Source of the DNA: Escherichia phage ECD7
Direction: 5' to 3' (one strand)
Sequence record: NC_041936.1
Length of the DNA: 64,000 nt
Shown: positions 3,595 through 32,470 of the stretch, piece after piece
Numbering within the stretch: the first letter of the stretch is position 1
Layout: each line of letters opens with the position of its first letter
The notes under the pieces: generated by a model
The model's database searches: none
What the model saw: the letters and a program-made list of their open reading frames with translations, nothing else
What the model was told of the DNA's origin: nothing
Program-made: the position numbers and the translations under genes

Positions 3595-4836
3595 ATGACT
3601 CATATTTTTACTGAACTGTTGCGGGAATCTACTTCCTCAGTAGCTAACCAGACAGCGCGACCGCAACTATTATCATTAACTCGCGCGGTAAACAACCTGA
3701 TTTTCTCTGATCTGGTAGCAATCCAGCCAACGGATCAACCAGTATCTGCATTGTACGGCCTACGTTATCTTAATCGTGATGGTCAGATGACTTTCCGAAC
3801 TGCTGCGACCTACGGTGGCGCGGCTGGTGATCGCACAGAGATTGAAGAGTTTTCAAAAGAAAAATCTTATGACGAAGGCGCACTGTTCAAATCAGGCGAT
3901 GTTGTATACGAAGTTGTGACCGCTGGTACAGTCGGTGAAGATGCCGAAACTCCAGAATCTGCAATCTTTAAAGGCGTAATGACAAACAAAATTCGTTTCT
4001 ATAGCGATTGTGCATCGGTAGAATACTTTGAAGATAAAAACACCGAAATTTCGTCTACCTCTATGCAGTTTGATAAATGGCAGGTTAATGTAGGTTCCCG
4101 TAAACTGAAAACCTCGTTCACCACTGAATTAATGCAGGATCTTGAGGCAAGCCAAATCAACTCTGAAAACTCTGTAATTGATCTTCTGGCTACTGTTGCT
4201 TCCGAAGAGATCAACAAAGATATTATTCAGAAGTTGATCACTGTATCATCTCGCTATAAAATTAAAGGGATCACCCCTGATGGCGTACTTTCTCTCGTTA
4301 GCGTTCAGGATGCACCAACACAAGCGCGTGAACTTTACCGCTATGCTTGCGAGATGAGCAATCAAATGTTGCGGACTTCCTCCTTTGCTGGTACATACGT
4401 TTTGGCGTCTTCTCGCGTGGTTGGCCTCCTGCAATCTACCGGATGGATGGAAGAAACCGACAATGCTCTAAGCGAAGGTCGTCTACGTTGCGGTCTGGAA
4501 GTGTACGCAGACACGACAACACCTTTCGATTATATGCTCGTTGGTTGTAAGCACATGATCGGTGATATGGAGAGTGTAGGTTCTTTGTTCTACTCCCCAT
4601 ATACAGAAGCCGACGGCGCTGGCGCGTATAAGAGTGTAATTGACCCTAATAGCTTCCAGCATCATGTAGCTATTATGAATCGTTATTCACTCTCTGTCAA
4701 CCCATACACATCAAAAGTTGATCAGGAAGAACACCAGGTCATCAAGGGTGACGATTGGGGTAAAATGGCTGGACGTTCAGAAATGTCCTACATTTTAGGA
4801 ATCGAACTGCCACCGCTTGAGATTGACAACGCTTAA
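3595..4836 (+). CDS. 24: capsid vertex protein gp24
   Basis: 413 aa from Met at 3595; colinear with recalled T4 gp24 (ELLRES..., GITPDG, FYSPYTE, ANPYT); the track ORF begins upstream at 3484. Confidence 0.9.
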   Translation: MTHIFTELLRESTSSVANQTARPQLLSLTRAVNNLIFSDLVAIQPTDQPVSALYGLRYLNRDGQMTFRTAATYGGAAGDRTEIEEFSKEKSYDEGALFKSGDVVYEVVTAGTVGEDAETPESAIFKGVMTNKIRFYSDCASVEYFEDKNTEISSTSMQFDKWQVNVGSRKLKTSFTTELMQDLEASQINSENSVIDLLATVASEEINKDIIQKLITVSSRYKIKGITPDGVLSLVSVQDAPTQARELYRYACEMSNQMLRTSSFAGTYVLASSRVVGLLQSTGWMEETDNALSEGRLRCGLEVYADTTTPFDYMLVGCKHMIGDMESVGSLFYSPYTEADGAGAYKSVIDPNSFQHHVAIMNRYSLSVNPYTSKVDQEEHQVIKGDDWGKMAGRSEMSYILGIELPPLEIDNA

Positions 4837-5424
4837 CTAAATATCTAACCAAGACAAGTCAGATCCGCCCAAGATTTTTTCGACGGCGGATCTATTTTCT
4901 TGATGATATAAGTTAAAACATGGTATCCCATGTCTACGGGCAACATAAACAGCAATTCGAGTTCCTCCCGAAACGATTCCATTAACTTCTTTCGCCCAAA
5001 ATATCACACAATCTACAGGGTCATCAAGTGTCTCACCTAAGACTTGAGCAACATTTCTAGAAAACAGATTTTGCATGTATAACGGTATAGAACGAGGATT
5101 ATCATAAACGTGTTCTAATTCATCCATCGCCAGATTTTTTTGTTCTAAGGTTTGCCATGCAATCACATCATGACCGTTATGCTTGTGGTCATAAAACTTC
5201 CAATTTGGAATGAAAATTTTTCTATAATCTGGATCGTAATACTTCATGAAAGCATTGTCCATACCGTAAGCCCCTCCAGAATGCGCTACAACGCGATTTT
5301 CTGACAATACCCTCCCAATGGTACTAGCCATTATCAAAATGTCGCTAGGCGCTTTTCTAGAGCCGATTAAAGCACATCTACGAAGTGGTTTTACTCCAAA
5401 TAGATCTTGTAACTGGTCAAACAT
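4837..5424 (-). CDS. DprA/Smf-like (SLOG Rossmann-fold) protein
   Basis: 195 aa; IGSRKAPS...VAHSGGAYGMDNA and later SRNVAQVLG...VSGGTRIAVYVARRHG resemble the DprA Rossmann domain; occupies the T4 rnlB slot. Confidence 0.5.
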   Translation of the reverse strand: MFDQLQDLFGVKPLRRCALIGSRKAPSDILIMASTIGRVLSENRVVAHSGGAYGMDNAFMKYYDPDYRKIFIPNWKFYDHKHNGHDVIAWQTLEQKNLAMDELEHVYDNPRSIPLYMQNLFSRNVAQVLGETLDDPVDCVIFWAKEVNGIVSGGTRIAVYVARRHGIPCFNLYHQENRSAVEKILGGSDLSWLDI

Positions 5425-5576
5425 AATATTTCCTCCATAGAAAGCAATATCATACTACAAGTTAATAACAAATACAAGTATCCGCGTAGCGGAAGCGAGC
5501 ACAGCGAGCAATAAAACACTTCCAGTAATTGATTAATAAATGTTCGAAACAAATTTTTATTATTCTATAAGATAAG

Positions 5577-5602
5577 TCTTCGTTTTGATCATAATTTAAT
5601 CA
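5577..5602. repeat. direct repeat copy 1 (TCTTCGTTTTGATCATAATTTAATCA)
   Basis: identical 26-mer recurs at 5726-5751 in a ~410 bp ORF-free AT-rich interval. Confidence 0.8.
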
Positions 5603-5725
5603 TACATGTAAAAACTACACAAAAGGATATCGCTTCGCGAACTCCTACGGAGTATAACATTTGTGTTACAATATGTAGTGATTAATAATTAACCAAAGAT
5701 ACATTTTCTATGTTCTAAAGATCTT

Positions 5726-5751
5726 TCTTCGTTTTGATCATAATTTAATCA
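5726..5751. repeat. direct repeat copy 2 (TCTTCGTTTTGATCATAATTTAATCA)
   Basis: identical to 5577-5602; flanking bases also similar. Confidence 0.8.
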
Positions 5752-5804
5752 AACAGTATTAATATTGTGCACATGTAAACTAAAATTATGTTAATAACAG
5801 ATAC

Positions 5805-5828
5805 AAAAAAGCCGCCCCAAAGGACGGC
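5805..5828 (-). terminator. rho-independent terminator (minus strand)
   Basis: GC hairpin GCCGCCCC..GGACGGC with A-run on plus (U-run on minus), just downstream of the 5838-6275 gene. Confidence 0.55.
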
Positions 5829-5837
5829 TAATGTTAA

Positions 5838-6275
5838 TTATTTGTTGATAACGATCTGATTTCGGCGAATGGTAACATTACTCTTAGAGATGATCAGATC
5901 ATCCGGCACTACGTTAGTTTTGTATGGTTGGAAGCGAACAAGCATCTGATTGCGTTTAGACCCTTCCTTAATCTTGATTTCCATCTGGATATTGTTGCCT
6001 ACGTGAGCAACCGCAATTTCACCTTTATTCTCATAGACCCACTTGCTGGTAACGTCTCCAGCAAAAGCCTTAATAACTTGCAATGCTTCGTCGTATGCGG
6101 TAGAGCTGTGAACTTTCAGAAGGCCAGCCGTAGCAAGACGTGAGCAGGTGATCGCCGGAGATTGCCAAACATCAACATTAATTTGCTCAATCAGAGTAAC
6201 ACCGCCCTGATCAACTGCTTTGAATGCTTCGAACATTGCCTTTTTCATTGCTACGTGGTTTTTACGGAATTTCAT
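5838..6275 (-). CDS. hypothetical protein (145 aa)
   Basis: ORF followed by a terminator; no recognisable motif. Confidence 0.5.
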   Translation of the reverse strand: MKFRKNHVAMKKAMFEAFKAVDQGGVTLIEQINVDVWQSPAITCSRLATAGLLKVHSSTAYDEALQVIKAFAGDVTSKWVYENKGEIAVAHVGNNIQMEIKIKEGSKRNQMLVRFQPYKTNVVPDDLIISKSNVTIRRNQIVINK

Positions 6276-6321
6276 AATTAGTCACCTCTATTGATTAGTT
6301 ATTCAGAATATTAATTACAAA

Positions 6322-6597
6322 TCAGGACATTGCCCGTTTGAATGCGTCCATTATAACAGTGTTATTTGGCATGTCAACACGTTTTTGAACTTTATTTTTA
6401 AATTTTTTGTTGATGTGGTGTTTACGATAAACAACCTTTTCACGGTTGGCGTAAGCCTCGCGTGCGTCTTTTACCATCAACCATGCCTTAGCCGCATCTT
6501 GTCCGCTGATCCCGCCAATCTTCTTAGCAATATCAACAAAATTAAGACCGTGGTCTTCGCGTAGCATGTAAACCATTAACGCTGTTTTCTTGTCCAT
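6322..6597 (-). CDS. hypothetical protein (91 aa), start chosen at internal Met
   Basis: ATG overlaps the stop of the upstream gene (TGATG coupling); the track ORF extends further 5'. Confidence 0.4.
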   Translation of the reverse strand: MDKKTALMVYMLREDHGLNFVDIAKKIGGISGQDAAKAWLMVKDAREAYANREKVVYRKHHINKKFKNKVQKRVDMPNNTVIMDAFKRAMS

Positions 6598-6794
6598 CAC
6601 TTCGCCCCATTGACGATTAACAGGATAGTGATTAGCACCGGAAACTGGATCATGATAGTGCCAATAAACCGGATAAATGCATTTTCTGACTTCCACACAT
6701 GACATGCGACTAGCTGATAGACCATTGTTGAAACCAGAACTAGGATATAAACCGAAAGCGGTGTAACTTCGATTAGTCGGGAAATCTCATTCAT
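6597..6794 (-). CDS. small hydrophobic protein (65 aa)
   Basis: hydrophobic, membrane-like sequence; GAGGTGA RBS upstream of the ATG. Confidence 0.4.
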   Translation of the reverse strand: MNEISRLIEVTPLSVYILVLVSTMVYQLVACHVWKSENAFIRFIGTIMIQFPVLITILLIVNGAK

Positions 6795-6954
6795 ACTTCA
6801 CCTCATACATTCATAAACACAACAACGAATAATACAGTAACAGTTATCAACGCCATTTTCAACCCCATATTCATAATATGTTCTTCGCCTCACTATGGAC
6901 AGTAGCATGTCGATGCGTGCCATTATAGACATCTAAATCGCTCTGTCAAGCACA

Positions 6955-6984
6955 AAAACAAAAAAGCCACCCCGAAGGATGGCT
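6955..6984 (-). terminator. rho-independent terminator downstream of hoc
   Basis: AGCCACCCC-GAAG-GATGGCT hairpin with A-run on plus. Confidence 0.6.
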
Positions 6985-6995
6985 GATAGATTTCA

Positions 6996-8210
6996 TTAAG
7001 CAGGATGCGTTTCACGAATGCGTAGAACTCGCTCTAACGTATCTCGGTCCAGTTTATGTAACTCTTTGGAATGATACATGAAACCATTGCGAGATTCCAT
7101 GCAAGTGCAATCACTATATTTTTCTTCCGCTGCCGCGATTGTCTCCAGATCTTTGGCGTACTTGCTGGTTGAATAAACTTCTCGATCACGCCACTCTAAC
7201 CCAGACTCATTGAATTTAACAATCTCGTCAAATACCCACCATCCAATGTAGATAAATGAAGTTTTGCGCCACGGGATCGGGTGTACGTAACGAAACATTT
7301 TAACAACTTCCATTGAACATTTTCGGCTTGTACTTGCTGCAACTTCTACTGTTTCATCTTCGATCTGTTGATATAGTTTAGCAACACACCAGAATTTGGC
7401 TGTGTCATCGTAAGTAGCACTCTCTTTGAACAGATGACCGTCTGGAGTGATAGAAAATCCTTCCAGTGCTTCGCCGACCTCACTACCGATCAGAGTCGGT
7501 GACATTTGCCCTTCGCGCTGCAAATACCAGTTATATTTGATCGTCAAATTAGGCATACCGCTAGAATCGCCTACAATGTCCTCTGACACAACATAATTAA
7601 GTGATATCTCATTACCTAGTGCCACGGTCTTTGATTCCACCACATCCTGATCTACGTTCATTGTTGCCAGCATTATTTTAGTCGATGCGCTAGCGGCTGA
7701 ATCTTCCGACTCGCCCCACACTTTTACAGTATACACGCCGTTTTTATCTGCTGTAAATTCTTGGATCGTAATATCCTTTTTTGTGTCTATAACGTCATCG
7801 CCCTTACTCCAACTATAATGTAGTTCATAGTTGTCTGCTGGAGTCTTCCCACCAGAAAAATTTACTGTTGCATGTAATTCTACGTCTTTTTGTGATGATA
7901 CGTAGAAATGCTGCGGTTCGGTGATATTTACGATTAATTCAGCTTCTTCCATGAGGAAAACTTCAGATTCTACTGATGTCATCGTATCGGTATCTTGTAC
8001 CGTTACTTTATAGCTACCCGCATTTTCACTTGTTGCGTCTGCTACAGTTAGCGTAGCTGTGCTATTTTCATGCGGTTGGTCGTCTTTTGTCCATGTATAT
8101 GTCAAATTGCTGGGTAATGGTTCGTCACCCGCTACAGTCGCCGTTAAGGTGAAACCATCTCCAGCAAGAAAACATCTTTTGTTAGATTGTATTGATACTG
8201 TGAAAGCCAT
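6996..8210 (-). CDS. hoc: highly immunogenic outer capsid protein Hoc
   Basis: 404 aa; Ig-like N-terminal repeats; C-terminus YVHPIPWRKTSFIYIGWWVFDEI...ESRNGFMYHSKEL matches recalled T4 Hoc capsid-binding domain. Confidence 0.85.
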   Translation of the reverse strand: MAFTVSIQSNKRCFLAGDGFTLTATVAGDEPLPSNLTYTWTKDDQPHENSTATLTVADATSENAGSYKVTVQDTDTMTSVESEVFLMEEAELIVNITEPQHFYVSSQKDVELHATVNFSGGKTPADNYELHYSWSKGDDVIDTKKDITIQEFTADKNGVYTVKVWGESEDSAASASTKIMLATMNVDQDVVESKTVALGNEISLNYVVSEDIVGDSSGMPNLTIKYNWYLQREGQMSPTLIGSEVGEALEGFSITPDGHLFKESATYDDTAKFWCVAKLYQQIEDETVEVAASTSRKCSMEVVKMFRYVHPIPWRKTSFIYIGWWVFDEIVKFNESGLEWRDREVYSTSKYAKDLETIAAAEEKYSDCTCMESRNGFMYHSKELHKLDRDTLERVLRIRETHPA

Positions 8211-30515: not shown

Positions 30516-32010
30516 CGAATACCTCTTTTACTGTATTTGCAGTGGTCTTGTCGTAGCGAATACGTTTGATGATTGGGAGAAATAAAGAGAACTCCGGTTC
30601 ATCTTCTTTACGTGATTTGCTGCGGATATACCCGTTGCATGTCATCTCAATGACTTTTCCAATCAGGTTATGACGGTCAGTCCATAACATTTCTCGGTCG
30701 AGTTCATTTCGACGATCGAACGGAATTACACGTTCAGTACCATCATCACCTTTTTCGGTTGTAGTGTCGGTTAATCCCGATCCGGTGTTAGTCATCATTC
30801 GTCCGCACGCACTACGGACAGTAAAACCGCCTACCTTATTGGGGTCTTTACTATGCGGATATACATCAACAATTTCCGCGTCGAAGTCAATCACTTCTTT
30901 AAATTTAACCTGATCTTTACTACGGCGATCTTCAAATACACCATGTAAATTTTTAAGGATAATACCTTCTAAGCCCATGTTTACATAGCGATGATATACT
31001 TCGCGAGCTTCATCGATATTGTTAACTACAGTGTTTTCGATTATCTGAACACGAGGATCGTTAAGTTCTTCAACAATCTGTTTTAGCTCTTCGAATCGAT
31101 CTTTATATTGCTTCGTTGCTTTCTCGTTTCCGTAATACACATCACGGTCGATAACATCCCAGACAGTGTAAACAATACATTGGGCTTCTTCTTTTGGAAT
31201 AGTTCCTTTCAGTGATTTGTTGAGGATACCATTTCCGGTCTGACGATCTGCAACAACGGATTCTTTCACCGCTTCCGCTACTGGCGTTAATGGCATTTCC
31301 TCTTCTTCAAATATCCATGACAGAGTACCATCATAAACGCTCTCAACGAAGTTCTGCGCTGGTGTTTGCGAAAGGGTAGGCATATATACCAATTCGCCAT
31401 CTAGAACAATTCCACGGCCTCGTAGACTCTCTAAAACCGCAAACAAATCATCAAGCCCTTGATAGGTATTACCTGAACGGGTATAGATTGCTAATGTTTC
31501 CCCGTCAATATCAGCCATACCACGAGCGCCATCGCTTTTAAGTTGTGCATACGCCGGATATTTGATATTGGCAATGGTCTTATCAGAACATGACGATGCA
31601 AGGTGGCACGGCTGCTGGGGGATCAGTTTCTTCCATACCTTGTTTGCAGTGGTAGCGGAACAACCGCATTCCAGGTCACGATTCAGGACCATCATTGCAA
31701 CTTTAGCATCATCTTCTGACAAGCAAGTCAGAGTATCGGTAACTAGCTGTAATGCTGCATTACCAGTTACTTGACGTGTGGCAAGTTTATTTTTAAAGAC
31801 TTGTAATGCACCGGATAAAGACAATACAGACGAATAGCGCGATGGTTTATCGTATTTCTTTACGCCAAACGTAACCTGTTTGCAATATGCCAGATAAAAG
31901 CATTCTTTCAGTGTTTCATTGCTTGCAGATTCTTTCAGGATCTTTTCTTTCAGCGATGTTTTGTCTGTTGCTGCAAGCTGATTAATGATATTAAGAATTG
32001 ACATTTTCAC
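30508..32010 (-). CDS. 30: ATP-dependent DNA ligase gp30
   Basis: 500 aa; GLEGIILKN, KGTIPKEEAQC, FKEVIDFDAEIVDVYPH colinear with recalled T4 DNA ligase. Confidence 0.9.
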   Translation of the reverse strand: MKMSILNIINQLAATDKTSLKEKILKESASNETLKECFYLAYCKQVTFGVKKYDKPSRYSSVLSLSGALQVFKNKLATRQVTGNAALQLVTDTLTCLSEDDAKVAMMVLNRDLECGCSATTANKVWKKLIPQQPCHLASSCSDKTIANIKYPAYAQLKSDGARGMADIDGETLAIYTRSGNTYQGLDDLFAVLESLRGRGIVLDGELVYMPTLSQTPAQNFVESVYDGTLSWIFEEEEMPLTPVAEAVKESVVADRQTGNGILNKSLKGTIPKEEAQCIVYTVWDVIDRDVYYGNEKATKQYKDRFEELKQIVEELNDPRVQIIENTVVNNIDEAREVYHRYVNMGLEGIILKNLHGVFEDRRSKDQVKFKEVIDFDAEIVDVYPHSKDPNKVGGFTVRSACGRMMTNTGSGLTDTTTEKGDDGTERVIPFDRRNELDREMLWTDRHNLIGKVIEMTCNGYIRSKSRKEDEPEFSLFLPIIKRIRYDKTTANTVKEVFDV

Positions 32011-32470
32011 CTCGTTTTGTTAAACGTTCACGAATATCATTGAGGATACTACAAAATTCTGATTCGGTCAATATGGTCTTTAACGGATCAGTTCCACCTA
32101 TACTATGACGTAATTTCTTATTTCCGGTAGCGAGTAATGCTTTACAAAATTCTGGGTTATTCCGTGCCATCGTAACAAATGCCAGGTGCACCAGTCTGTA
32201 ATAATGCTCACTCATTCGATGAATCGGGCGACCCTGAAAATATAGCATGTGATTCTCAATCTTTTCAGTCCTTCCGGTTCTTTTTGCCTTGCCACCGTGC
32301 ATCAAAAAGATTTCTCTTTGCTTTTCTGGATTCTTGAATCTTAATCCCTGTAAAAATCCTTCTGTGCTGTTAATATCGCAACCAAATAGACGGAATGGTC
32401 TTTTATTGAAGTTGCTCAATTCACCCGATGGATAAGGTCCACCCGCATAGATATCAATTTCAGAAGTCAT
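31991..32470 (-). CDS. NADAR (YbiA/DUF1768)-like protein
   Basis: ELSNFNKRPFRLFGCDINSTEGFLQGLRF and ALLATGNKKL resemble NADAR-family signatures. Confidence 0.5.
   Translation of the reverse strand: MTSEIDIYAGGPYPSGELSNFNKRPFRLFGCDINSTEGFLQGLRFKNPEKQREIFLMHGGKAKRTGRTEKIENHMLYFQGRPIHRMSEHYYRLVHLAFVTMARNNPEFCKALLATGNKKLRHSIGGTDPLKTILTESEFCSILNDIRERLTKRGENVNS

What the first reader, a model, noticed from the sequence alone, without database searches (positions are those of the whole stretch)
4837..5424. DprA/Smf-like protein in the position of T4 rnlB
Immediately after gene 24, T4 encodes RNA ligase 2. Here the first gene is a 195 aa protein whose GSRKAPS...SGGAYGMDNA and RNVAQVLG...VSGGTRIAVYVARRHG segments resemble the Rossmann domain of DprA, a RecA-loading protein. 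A phage DprA-like factor could take part in recombination-dependent replication, or act as a nucleotide-processing SLOG enzyme.
Basis: partly seen in the sequence, partly recalled or inferred. Interest (0 to 1): 0.45.

Follow-up and report, generated by a model that had tools for sequence, protein, structure and literature searches.

The report
Phage stand-alone DprA-like SLOG protein
The gene next to capsid gene 24 encodes a small nucleotide- or single-strand-binding protein related to bacterial DprA; it is already annotated in this phage group and common in large phages, but nobody has tested what it does.

Summary
A 195-aa ORF lies at 4837-5424 on the minus strand, tail to tail with gene 24, and contains the quoted motifs.

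The window is a Krischvirus (RB49/Phi1/GEC-3S, 99% identity). RefSeq already names this protein "DprA-like DNA recombination-mediator protein" (PHROG 768, E = 1e-60).

In other T4-like genera the gene lies downstream of rnlB, adjacent or two small genes away, and next to gene 24. T4 lacks it and Krischvirus lacks rnlB.

Across the family I found fusions or operons with NADAR (the AdfN-type ADP-ribosyl-DNA hydrolase), DUF4326 and RecJ, and neighbourhoods with Macro and NAMPT. No recombination genes were seen nearby.

My best reading, at moderate confidence, is a base-pocket binder of single-stranded nucleic acid or ADP-ribose adducts that acts in NAD/ADP-ribose counter-defence, not a RecA loader. 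Already known; modest interest.

The parts
4837..5424 (-). CDS of 195 aa: stand-alone SLOG-superfamily (DprA-like, PHROG 768) protein, identical to RB49p164 / NP_891735
5431..5436 (-). Shine-Dalgarno GGAGGA, 6 nt upstream of the ATG
   Evidence: Read directly from the minus-strand sequence.
5356..5364 (-). Codons for G21-S22-R23, DprA ssDNA-pocket motif 1 ('G-S/T/A-R'; H. pylori DprA Arg52)
   Evidence: Present in 88-99% of 137 family representatives. Motif defined in PMC3950713. Aligned to IGTRR of HpDprA.
5257..5280 (-). Codons for S49-G-G-A-Y-G-M-D56, the glycine-rich SLOG/DprA nucleotide loop (SGxAxGxD)
   Evidence: G50 and D56 are invariant; S49, A52 and G54 are at 96% or more. The spacing from the GSR motif (26 aa) equals that in E. 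coli Smf.
5044..5067 (-). Codons for L120-F-S-R123-N124-V-A-Q127, DprA ssDNA-pocket motif 2 ('F/L/Y-x-x-R-N/D'; HpDprA F140..R143-N144) plus the family-specific Q127
   Evidence: R123 99%, N124 96%, Q127 96%, L120 82%. Motif definition. Lies in helix 115-129 of the model.
4960..4968 (-). Codons for G153-G154-T155, corresponding to the SGSxxT of DprA and the GxGT of LOG; the LOG catalytic Glu position is A158
   Evidence: 99% conserved. A158 is 95% Ala. LOG motif PGGxGTxxE is quoted in PMC3950713.
4861..4893 (+). Strong hairpin followed by AUUUUCUU, inside the 3' end of the CDS; probable terminator of the convergent gene-24 late transcript
   Evidence: Fold of 4837-4910: -26.1 kcal/mol, z = -5.8, and 0 of 200 shuffles fold as well.
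5810..5829 (-). Intrinsic terminator after the upstream 145-aa gene; it separates the SLOG gene from the upstream early transcription unit
   Evidence: Terminator scan: 8-bp stem with 6 GC pairs and a T6 tail. Annotated as a terminator in GEC-3S.
5425..5809 (-). Gene-free upstream region with repeated modules; the promoter of the SLOG gene was not identified
   Evidence: No CDS annotated here in RB49 or GEC-3S. Direct repeats of 38 nt and 17 nt. No sigma-70 consensus and no late TATAAATA on the minus strand. No credible Rfam match; four weak matches lie far below gathering thresholds.

Best explanation
The ORF encodes a single-domain SLOG-superfamily Rossmannoid protein. It belongs to a large, mostly phage-borne family (PHROG 768) that is the closest sister of the Rossmann domain of bacterial DprA/Smf. 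Fold, family and conservation are shown here. The protein keeps the whole DprA base-binding pocket: R23, F77, L120/F121, R123, N124 and G153-G154 correspond to H. pylori DprA R52, Y108, F140, R143, N144 and G164. I therefore infer that it grips single-stranded nucleic acid by inserting one base, or an ADP-ribose-bearing nucleotide, into that pocket. Family members are repeatedly fused or translationally coupled to NADAR, the enzyme class to which T4 AdfN/gp30.3 belongs; AdfN removes ADP-ribose from guanine in phage DNA to defeat DarTG1. Members are also fused to DUF4326 and RecJ, and they sit in Macro-NAMPT-PRPP-synthetase clusters. From this I infer that the most likely role is an accessory factor in the NAD+/ADP-ribose conflict with host defence. 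It would recognise, and possibly help remove or shield, ADP-ribosylated bases on single-stranded DNA or RNA, or bind ADP-ribose-derived nucleotides. Loading a recombinase is less likely. In T4-like phages it is a syntenic gene downstream of rnlB (adjacent or two small genes away); Krischvirus kept it and lost rnlB. My confidence in the fold and family assignment is about 0.95. My confidence in the ADP-ribose/nucleic-acid counter-defence role is about 0.35-0.4.

For: Pocket: both DprA ssDNA motifs defined by mutagenesis and a crystal structure (PMC3950713) are near-invariant in 137 representatives. Their spacing matches E. coli Smf.

Context: among the best 150 representatives, three are NADAR fusions and two are 1475/1488-aa polyproteins that carry this domain with YAcAr and NADAR. 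There is also one DUF4326 fusion and one RecJ fusion. All of these keep the four motifs.

In 80 IMG/VR loci (60 lineages at 60% identity), NAMPT is nearby in 5 lineages, Macro in 4 and NADAR in 3. In L081 the NADAR stop overlaps the SLOG start, and L055 is a DUF4326 fusion.

Pakpunavirus has PRPP synthetase, NAMPT, Macro, two small genes and then SLOG. ER45 has NAMPT four genes downstream.

The same genome type also has gp30.3/AdfN (window 31994-32470), the Macro protein Tk.4 and the ART ModB.

Literature: NADAR/AdfN is an experimentally shown anti-DarTG1 ADP-ribosyl-DNA hydrolase in T-even phages (PMC11825919). A published survey of viral SLOG domains reaches a similar contextual prediction (PMC9503650).
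Against: There is no universal partner. Only 10 of 60 lineages have a detectable NAD/ADP-ribose gene within 5 kb, and I had no random-window background control. PhoH, ThyA, ClpP-like and capsid genes are equally frequent neighbours. In the window itself the neighbours are uninformative: gp24, a 145-aa protein with no Pfam hit, and a DUF2774 protein. No catalytic residue can be named, because the conserved residues largely mirror those of non-enzymatic DprA. The gene's promoter and expression class were not identified. No experiment on any member was found in the literature library.
Confidence: 0.4

Rival explanations
1. It is a true DprA-like recombination mediator. It binds phage ssDNA and loads or stabilises UvsX (or host RecA), or protects ssDNA, during recombination-dependent replication.
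For: DprA is the closest family by sequence and fold. Both ssDNA-binding motifs are intact. One family member is fused to a RecJ ssDNA exonuclease. A helicase gene lies two genes downstream in two related Vibrio-phage-type loci. The ShosA DprA-like protein binds ssDNA and RecA (PMC12961424). Iyer et al. suggested an extra ssDNA-binding role in jumbo phages (PMC7824862).
Against: It lacks the SAM and C-terminal domains of DprA and fails the curated thresholds (22.3 vs 29.6 bits; 14.4 vs 191 bits). No neighbourhood or fusion with recombinase, mediator or SSB genes appears in the roughly 15 annotated contexts or among the commonest neighbour families of the 80 loci. The phage has UvsX; a UvsY mediator is expected from T4 knowledge but was not checked. 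T4 itself does without this gene. The DprA residues that contact RecA could not be mapped.
Confidence: 0.2
2. It is an accessory of RNA ligase 2 in an RNA repair pathway, for example binding the single-stranded RNA end or a modified nucleotide at a break.
For: The gene starts at the stop codon of rnlB in Karamvirus and Jiaodavirus, and probably in Gelderlandvirus, where an unnamed rnlB-sized gene overlaps its start. It lies two small genes downstream of an RNA ligase gene in Gualtarvirus and Muldoonvirus. In a Slopekvirus-like phage the Rnl2-(HNH)-SLOG pair sits together at a different genome position, away from gene 24. Rnl2 lies within 5 kb in 2 of 60 metagenomic lineages.
Against: The RB49-type genome has no Rnl2 anywhere yet keeps the gene under conservation (tblastn; 57 records at 95% identity or more). 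Aeromonas phage Ah1 also lacks an RNA ligase gene at the locus. Outside Straboviridae the association is rare, so it may be inherited synteny and not function.
Confidence: 0.1
3. It is a small-molecule binder or enzyme. One option is a sponge for ADP-ribose-derived immune signals such as 3'cADPR, as bound by the ThsA SLOG domain. The other is a LOG/PpnN-like nucleotide N-glycosidase that feeds ribose-5-phosphate into PRPP and NAD salvage.
Against: The LOG motif PGGxGTxxE lacks its Glu (A158). No Pfam LOG, YpsA or YAcAr hit occurs in 66 members. The conserved residues are those of the DprA nucleic-acid pocket. No phage SLOG sponge is reported in the library.
Confidence: 0.15
4. It is an antitoxin mimic that neutralises host ShosTA or PsyrTA defence systems, whose antitoxins are DprA-like.
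Against: The PADLOC hits cover only the N-terminal 45 residues that all DprA-like proteins share. ShosA does not appear in the profile-versus-PDB sequence search, whereas DprA does. ShosA needs its SAM domain and C-terminal helix for stability, and it does not bind ShosT directly.
Confidence: 0.05

Closest known systems
Bacterial DprA/Smf, Rossmann-fold (DNA_processg_A, PF02481) domain
   Different: It is a single 195-aa domain with no SAM or C-terminal DML1/winged-helix domain. It scores below the Pfam and TIGRFAM cut-offs, and only residues 15-60 align. Family-specific invariants are Q127, T155 and N171, plus an LPWxxFN segment. It is phage-borne, with NAD/ADP-ribose rather than competence or recombination context.
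PHROG 768 / the phage 'DprA-like' proteins surveyed as viral SLOG domains (Iyer, Burroughs, Anantharaman, Aravind 2021 and 2022; phi92 gp47-like)
   Same: It is a full-length member (E = 1e-60). It shares the fusions to NADAR and DUF4326 and the Macro neighbourhoods that those surveys describe.
LOG / PpnN (YgdH) nucleotide N-glycosidases (PF03641)
   Different: The catalytic Glu of PGGxGTxxE is replaced by a conserved Ala. No Pfam hit.
ShosA / PsyrA DprA-like antitoxins of anti-phage toxin-antitoxin systems
   Different: No SAM domain, no C-terminal helix and no adjacent PRTase toxin. The similarity is limited to the shared N-terminal motifs.
ThsA SLOG domain (Thoeris effector sensor of 3'cADPR)
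   Different: No SIR2 or TIR partner. More distant than DprA by every measure. Ligand binding is untested.

Membership tests
DprA/Smf (PF02481, TIGR00732) | Score above the curated family cut-offs | tested here: not met
   PF02481 scores 22.3 bits against a gathering score of 29.6, and only aa 15-60 align. TIGR00732 scores 14.4 bits against 191. Of 66 family members, 48 hit PF02481; the best E-value is 1.4e-6.
DprA/Smf (PF02481, TIGR00732) | ssDNA-pocket motif 1, G-S/T/A-R (HpDprA Arg52) | tested here: met
   G21-S22-R23 is present in 88-99% of 137 representatives, aligns to IGTRR of HpDprA, and matches the motif definition.
DprA/Smf (PF02481, TIGR00732) | ssDNA-pocket motif 2, F/L/Y-x-x-R-N/D (HpDprA Phe140-Asn144) | tested here: met
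DprA/Smf (PF02481, TIGR00732) | Rossmann fold superposable on solved DprA structures | tested here: met
DprA/Smf (PF02481, TIGR00732) | Accessory domains (N-terminal SAM and/or C-terminal DML1/winged helix) | tested here: not met
   The 195-aa protein is a single domain. Family members are mostly 160-220 aa.
DprA/Smf (PF02481, TIGR00732) | ssDNA binding, dimerisation, and RecA interaction and loading | not testable with these tools
   This needs biochemistry or complex prediction. No recombination-gene context was seen.
SLOG superfamily (SMF/DprA-LOG; Pfam clan CL0349) | Three-layer alpha/beta Rossmannoid fold with glycine-rich nucleotide loops; top structural neighbours are all SLOG proteins | tested here: met
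PHROG 768 (phage DprA-like) | Full-length profile match | tested here: met
   E = 1.2e-60, 205 bits, aa 15-187 against profile positions 4-181 of 191.
LOG / lysine-decarboxylase-like (PF03641) | Motif PGGxGTxxE with the catalytic Glu | tested here: not met
   The sequence is V-S-G-G-T-R-I-A158; position 158 is Ala in 95% of the family. No Pfam hit.
YpsA / YAcAr (YspA) SLOG families | Profile match to PF06908 or PF10686 | tested here: not met
   No hit in the query or in any of 66 members. YAcAr occurs only as a separate domain in the polyproteins P0017 and P0019.
ShosA / PsyrA antitoxins | Full-length match to the defence-system model and an adjacent PRTase-type toxin | tested here: not met
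   PADLOC hits of 18-21 bits cover only aa 15-61. The neighbours are gp24 and small phage genes.
ThsA-type signal-sensing SLOG | Binding of cADPR isomers; association with SIR2 or TIR | not testable with these tools

The most novel reading that the evidence does not exclude
The stand-alone DprA-like SLOG protein is a previously unrecognised counter-defence factor against toxins that ADP-ribosylate nucleic acid, such as DarT or CmdT. It would flip an ADP-ribosylated base of single-stranded DNA or RNA into its DprA-type pocket. It would then either hydrolyse the ribosyl-base bond itself, which would be a new catalytic use of the DprA branch of SLOG, or hand the lesion to the phage NADAR (gp30.3/AdfN) or Macro (Tk.4) hydrolase. 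That would explain the recurrent NADAR-SLOG fusions and operons.
Probability: 0.15. Interest if true: 0.7.

Novelty: already known. Interest (0 to 1): 0.3.

Why it matters
The family is large: 1353 of 50,697 phage records and 4319 clusters at 50% identity, found in T4-like phages, Pakpunavirus, Vequintavirus-like phages and jumbo phages, many of them therapy candidates. Databases call it a 'DNA recombination-mediator', yet I found no experiment behind that name, and the gene context points to NAD/ADP-ribose conflict instead. Showing what it binds would correct a widely propagated annotation. It could also add a component to the phage toolkit against ADP-ribosylating defences, next to AdfN. For this window specifically the finding is ordinary: the gene and its DprA-like nature are already recorded.

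Tried and rejected
1. 'Replacement of rnlB': rejected as stated. In seven T4-like genera the gene lies next to or near gene 24. Four of them have an annotated RNA ligase gene upstream of it, and a fifth has an unnamed rnlB-sized gene there. The RB49-type genome simply has no Rnl2.

2. ShosA/PsyrA antitoxin mimicry: only weak N-terminal PADLOC hits.

3. LOG-type enzyme: the catalytic Glu is absent.

4. The search for related loci with the broad alignment A2 failed because no stretch was conserved enough. With the close alignment A1 it gave only 5 loci. A motif-selected subset (A3) gave 80 loci.

5. Search for one conserved neighbour: none exists.

6. Promoter of the gene: no sigma-70 consensus and no late TATAAATA on the minus strand in the 413-nt upstream gap, so the expression class is undetermined.

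7. Rfam on 4700-7000: no credible match; four weak matches lie far below gathering thresholds.

8. hhalign of the family against a single E. coli Smf sequence: E = 0.002 over 62 columns, probability only 14%. This is consistent with the relationship but not decisive.

9. Isoelectric point as a test of DNA binding: family median 8.55, this protein 6.4, so not discriminating.

10. Literature searches for an experimentally characterised phage DprA-like or SLOG protein, or a SLOG sponge: none found.

Full report
**Observation**

It runs from ATG at 5424 to TAG at 4839-4837 on the minus strand and encodes 195 aa. A GGAGGA ribosome-binding site lies 6 nt upstream. All quoted peptide segments are present.

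It converges on gene 24 with no intergenic base; the gp24 stop is TAA at 4834-4836. The window is a Krischvirus: 3.6 kb around the gene is 98-99.4% identical to GEC-3S, Phi1 and RB49. The protein is 100% identical to the RB49 and AV108 copies. In RB49 it is RB49p164 / NP_891735.

**It is already annotated**

RefSeq records of RB49, Phi1 and GEC-3S, and many Pharokka-type annotations, call it "DprA-like DNA recombination-mediator protein". That is the name of PHROG 768, which it matches over its full length at E = 1e-60. One record calls a homologue "YspA SLOG family protein". Another calls the same protein "putative RNA ligase", apparently transferred from the position of T4 rnlB.

**Fold and family**

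- Pfam returns only DNA_processg_A (PF02481), at 22.3 bits. This is below the gathering score of 29.6 and covers residues 15-60 only.
- TIGR00732 (dprA) is far below its cut-off.
- An AlphaFold2 model built on seven close homologues has pLDDT 83.8 and pTM 0.84, with a Rossmann-like strand/helix order.
- The lead is narrow. MoCo-carrier protein scores 12.1, TM1055 11.7, YpsA 11.6, ShosA 11.1, LOG enzymes about 10-11, and the ThsA SLOG domain 10.0.
- A profile of 66 diverse members against PDB sequences gives H. pylori DprA E = 1.4e-5 and the LOG-like YgdH 0.026.
- Of those 66 members, 48 hit PF02481, 7 hit LDcluster4, and none hit the YpsA, YAcAr or LOG models.

So the protein belongs to the SLOG superfamily, in a family of its own whose nearest characterised relative is the DprA Rossmann domain.

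**Size of the family**

tblastn finds homologues in 1353 of 50,697 phage records. Hosts include Klebsiella, Pseudomonas, Escherichia, Aeromonas, Vibrio and Acinetobacter. A profile search of 1.84 billion cluster representatives finds 4319 at E < 1e-3 and 2731 at E < 1e-10. Almost all are stand-alone proteins of 160-220 aa. BFVD structural neighbours are phage proteins named DprA-like or phi92 gp47-like.

**Conserved residues**

Across 137 representatives the near-invariant positions are:

- G21-S22-R23 and P26
- S49-G50-G51-A52-x-G54-x-D56
- P73
- L120-(H/F)-x-R123-N124-x-x-Q127 and G130
- G153-G154-T155, A158, A162 and N171

Wang et al. solved H. pylori DprA with ssDNA. They showed that one thymine inserts into a pocket made by Arg52, Tyr108, Phe140, Arg143, Asn144 and Gly164. 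They defined two DprA motifs, G-S/T/A-R and F/L/Y-x-x-R-N/D (PMC3950713). Both are present and near-invariant here.

The spacing from GSR to SGxAxGxD is 26 residues in both this protein and E. coli Smf.

**Synteny in T4-like phages**

| Genus (phage) | Arrangement |
|---|---|
| Karamvirus (fGh-Ecl04) | Gene starts at the stop codon of rnlB and ends next to gene 24 |
| Jiaodavirus (Mineola) | Gene starts at the stop codon of rnlB; one 270-aa hypothetical gene lies between it and gene 24 |
| Gelderlandvirus (STML-198) | An unnamed rnlB-sized gene overlaps its start; gene ends next to the capsid-vertex gene |
| Gualtarvirus, Muldoonvirus | RNA ligase gene, two small genes, this gene, gene 24 |
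| Cinqassovirus (Aeromonas Ah1) | No RNA ligase gene; this gene, then two small genes, then gene 24 |
| Slopekvirus-like (ER45) | Rnl2, an HNH insertion, then this gene, together elsewhere in the genome |

A tblastn of three Rnl2 proteins against the complete RB49-type genome finds nothing. I assembled that genome from RB49 1-92,000, the window, and RB49 150,001-164,018.

So the gene is not a substitute for rnlB. It is the conserved gene downstream of rnlB. T4 lacks it and Krischvirus lacks rnlB. Its retention without Rnl2 argues against an obligate Rnl2 partnership.

**Fusions and neighbourhoods across the family**

Among the best 150 representatives:

- three are NADAR + this domain (about 320-330 aa);
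- two are polyproteins of 1475 and 1488 aa that carry this domain, a YAcAr SLOG domain and NADAR;
- one is DUF4326 + this domain;
- one is RecJ (DHH-DHHA1-OB) + this domain.

All of them keep the four motifs.

In Pakpunavirus the gene order is PRPP synthetase, NAMPT-like, small gene, Macro, two small genes, then this gene.

In 80 IMG/VR loci, which form 60 lineages at 60% identity, genes within 5 kb were as follows:

| Neighbour | Lineages (of 60) |
|---|---|
| PhoH | 8 |
| Capsid genes | 6 |
| ClpP-like protease | 6 |
| NAMPT | 5 |
| Thymidylate synthase | 5 |
| Macro | 4 |
| NADAR | 3 |
| Rnl2 | 2 |
| DUF4326 (fused) | 1 |

In L081 the NADAR stop overlaps the start of this gene. In all, 10 of 60 lineages have at least one NAD/ADP-ribose gene nearby.

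There is no universal partner, and I saw no recombinase, mediator or SSB gene among the neighbours I examined. I had no random-window control, so the enrichment is an inference. It agrees with the statistical co-occurrence reported by Iyer et al. 2022 (PMC9503650).

**Bearing of the literature**

- T4 gp30.3 is AdfN, a NADAR ADP-ribosyl-glycohydrolase that counters the DarTG1 defence, in which DarT1 ADP-ribosylates guanine in phage DNA (PMC11825919). DarT toxins modify single-stranded DNA.
- The window encodes a gp30.3 homologue at 31994-32470 on the minus strand (Pfam Phage_30_3, 135 bits). The RB49 genome also has the Macro protein Tk.4 and the ADP-ribosyltransferase ModB.
- Iyer et al. 2021 noted DprA/Smf in jumbo phages as a possible extra ssDNA-binding protein. 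Their 2022 survey predicted that viral SLOG domains sense or process ADP-ribose derivatives, and said they were experimentally uncharacterised.
- ShosA, the DprA-like antitoxin of the ShosTA system, binds ssDNA and RecA. PADLOC models of ShosA and PsyrA match the phage protein only weakly, and only over the N-terminal motifs shared by all DprA-like proteins.
- I found no experimental study of any member of this phage family.

**Most likely mechanism**

Shown here:
- A conserved, widely distributed, stand-alone SLOG domain.
- It is nearest to DprA.
- It has the DprA base-pocket motifs and lacks the LOG catalytic Glu.

Inferred:
- It binds single-stranded nucleic acid or a nucleotide adduct through that pocket.
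- It is fused or coupled to NADAR, DUF4326 and RecJ, and it lies near Macro and NAMPT. An ssDNA-gripping module is what an ADP-ribosyl-DNA hydrolase would need.
- So the best single account is an accessory role in the NAD/ADP-ribose conflict: recognising, shielding or helping to remove ADP-ribose adducts on single strands, or binding related nucleotides. I give this about 0.35-0.4.

Rivals:
- Genuine recombination mediator, about 0.2.
- Small-molecule sponge or nucleotide glycosidase, about 0.15.
- Rnl2 accessory, about 0.1.
- Antitoxin mimic, about 0.05.

**Novelty and score**

The gene, its family and its DprA/SLOG nature are already in public annotation and in two comparative-genomics papers. 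For this window the finding is correct but ordinary.

The residual interest is that a family present in about 2.7% of sequenced phages carries a functional name that nothing supports. The NADAR linkage also gives a concrete, testable alternative.

Noticed in passing
window 4861-4893 (+), inside the 3' end of the CDS 4837-5424 (-): A strong hairpin (fold of 4837-4910: -26.1 kcal/mol, z = -5.8) is followed by AUUUUCUU and begins 25 nt after the gp24 stop codon. It is probably the terminator of the gene-24 late transcript, embedded in the coding sequence of the convergent gene. The two genes have zero intergenic bases, so late transcription should run antisense into the SLOG gene.
   Followed up: partly
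window 5425-5837: A 413-nt gene-free gap lies upstream of the SLOG gene; no CDS is annotated there in RB49 or GEC-3S. It opens with an intrinsic terminator (5829-5810, minus strand). It contains a 38-nt direct repeat (5569-5606 and 5718-5755, 89% identical) and a 17-nt repeat after each hairpin (5461-5477 and 5790-5806). No credible Rfam match, and no consensus early or late promoter was found, so how the gene is transcribed is unexplained.
   Followed up: partly
window 6949-6922 (-) and 6377-6350 (-): Two perfect 12-of-12 sigma-70 promoters (TTGACA, 16 nt, TATAAT) lie on the minus strand upstream of the small genes between hoc and the SLOG gene. They look like strong early promoters.
   Followed up: no
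window 31994-32470 (-): Homologue of T4 gp30.3 (Pfam Phage_30_3, 135 bits), which is AdfN, the NADAR ADP-ribosyl-DNA hydrolase shown to counter the DarTG1 defence in T-even phages (PMC11825919). Members of the SLOG family are fused to NADAR domains in other phages.
   Followed up: partly
RB49 genome (L009, L010, L011) plus the window: The RB49-type genome has no RNA ligase 2 homologue anywhere (tblastn). The RB49 gene 57B is labelled 'RNA ligase' in RefSeq although it encodes only about 154 aa; that label looks doubtful.
   Followed up: partly
GenBank MW748999 (Escherichia phage vB_EcoM_Skers), 25264-25848: The same protein (99.5% identical) is annotated 'putative RNA ligase', apparently transferred from the position of T4 rnlB and not from homology.
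   Followed up: no
window 6322-6705 (-) and 5838-6275 (-): The upstream neighbours are a DUF2774 protein (the gp24.3-like gene; the RB49 record starts it later, giving 91 aa) and a 145-aa protein with no Pfam match. DUF2774 genes also sit in the same block in Karamvirus and Jiaodavirus.
   Followed up: no
proteins P0017 and P0019 (metagenomic, 1475 and 1488 aa): Giant polyproteins combine two or three copies of this SLOG family with a YAcAr SLOG domain and a C-terminal NADAR domain. They resemble the 'polyvalent' injected counter-defence proteins described for phages and conjugative elements.
   Followed up: partly
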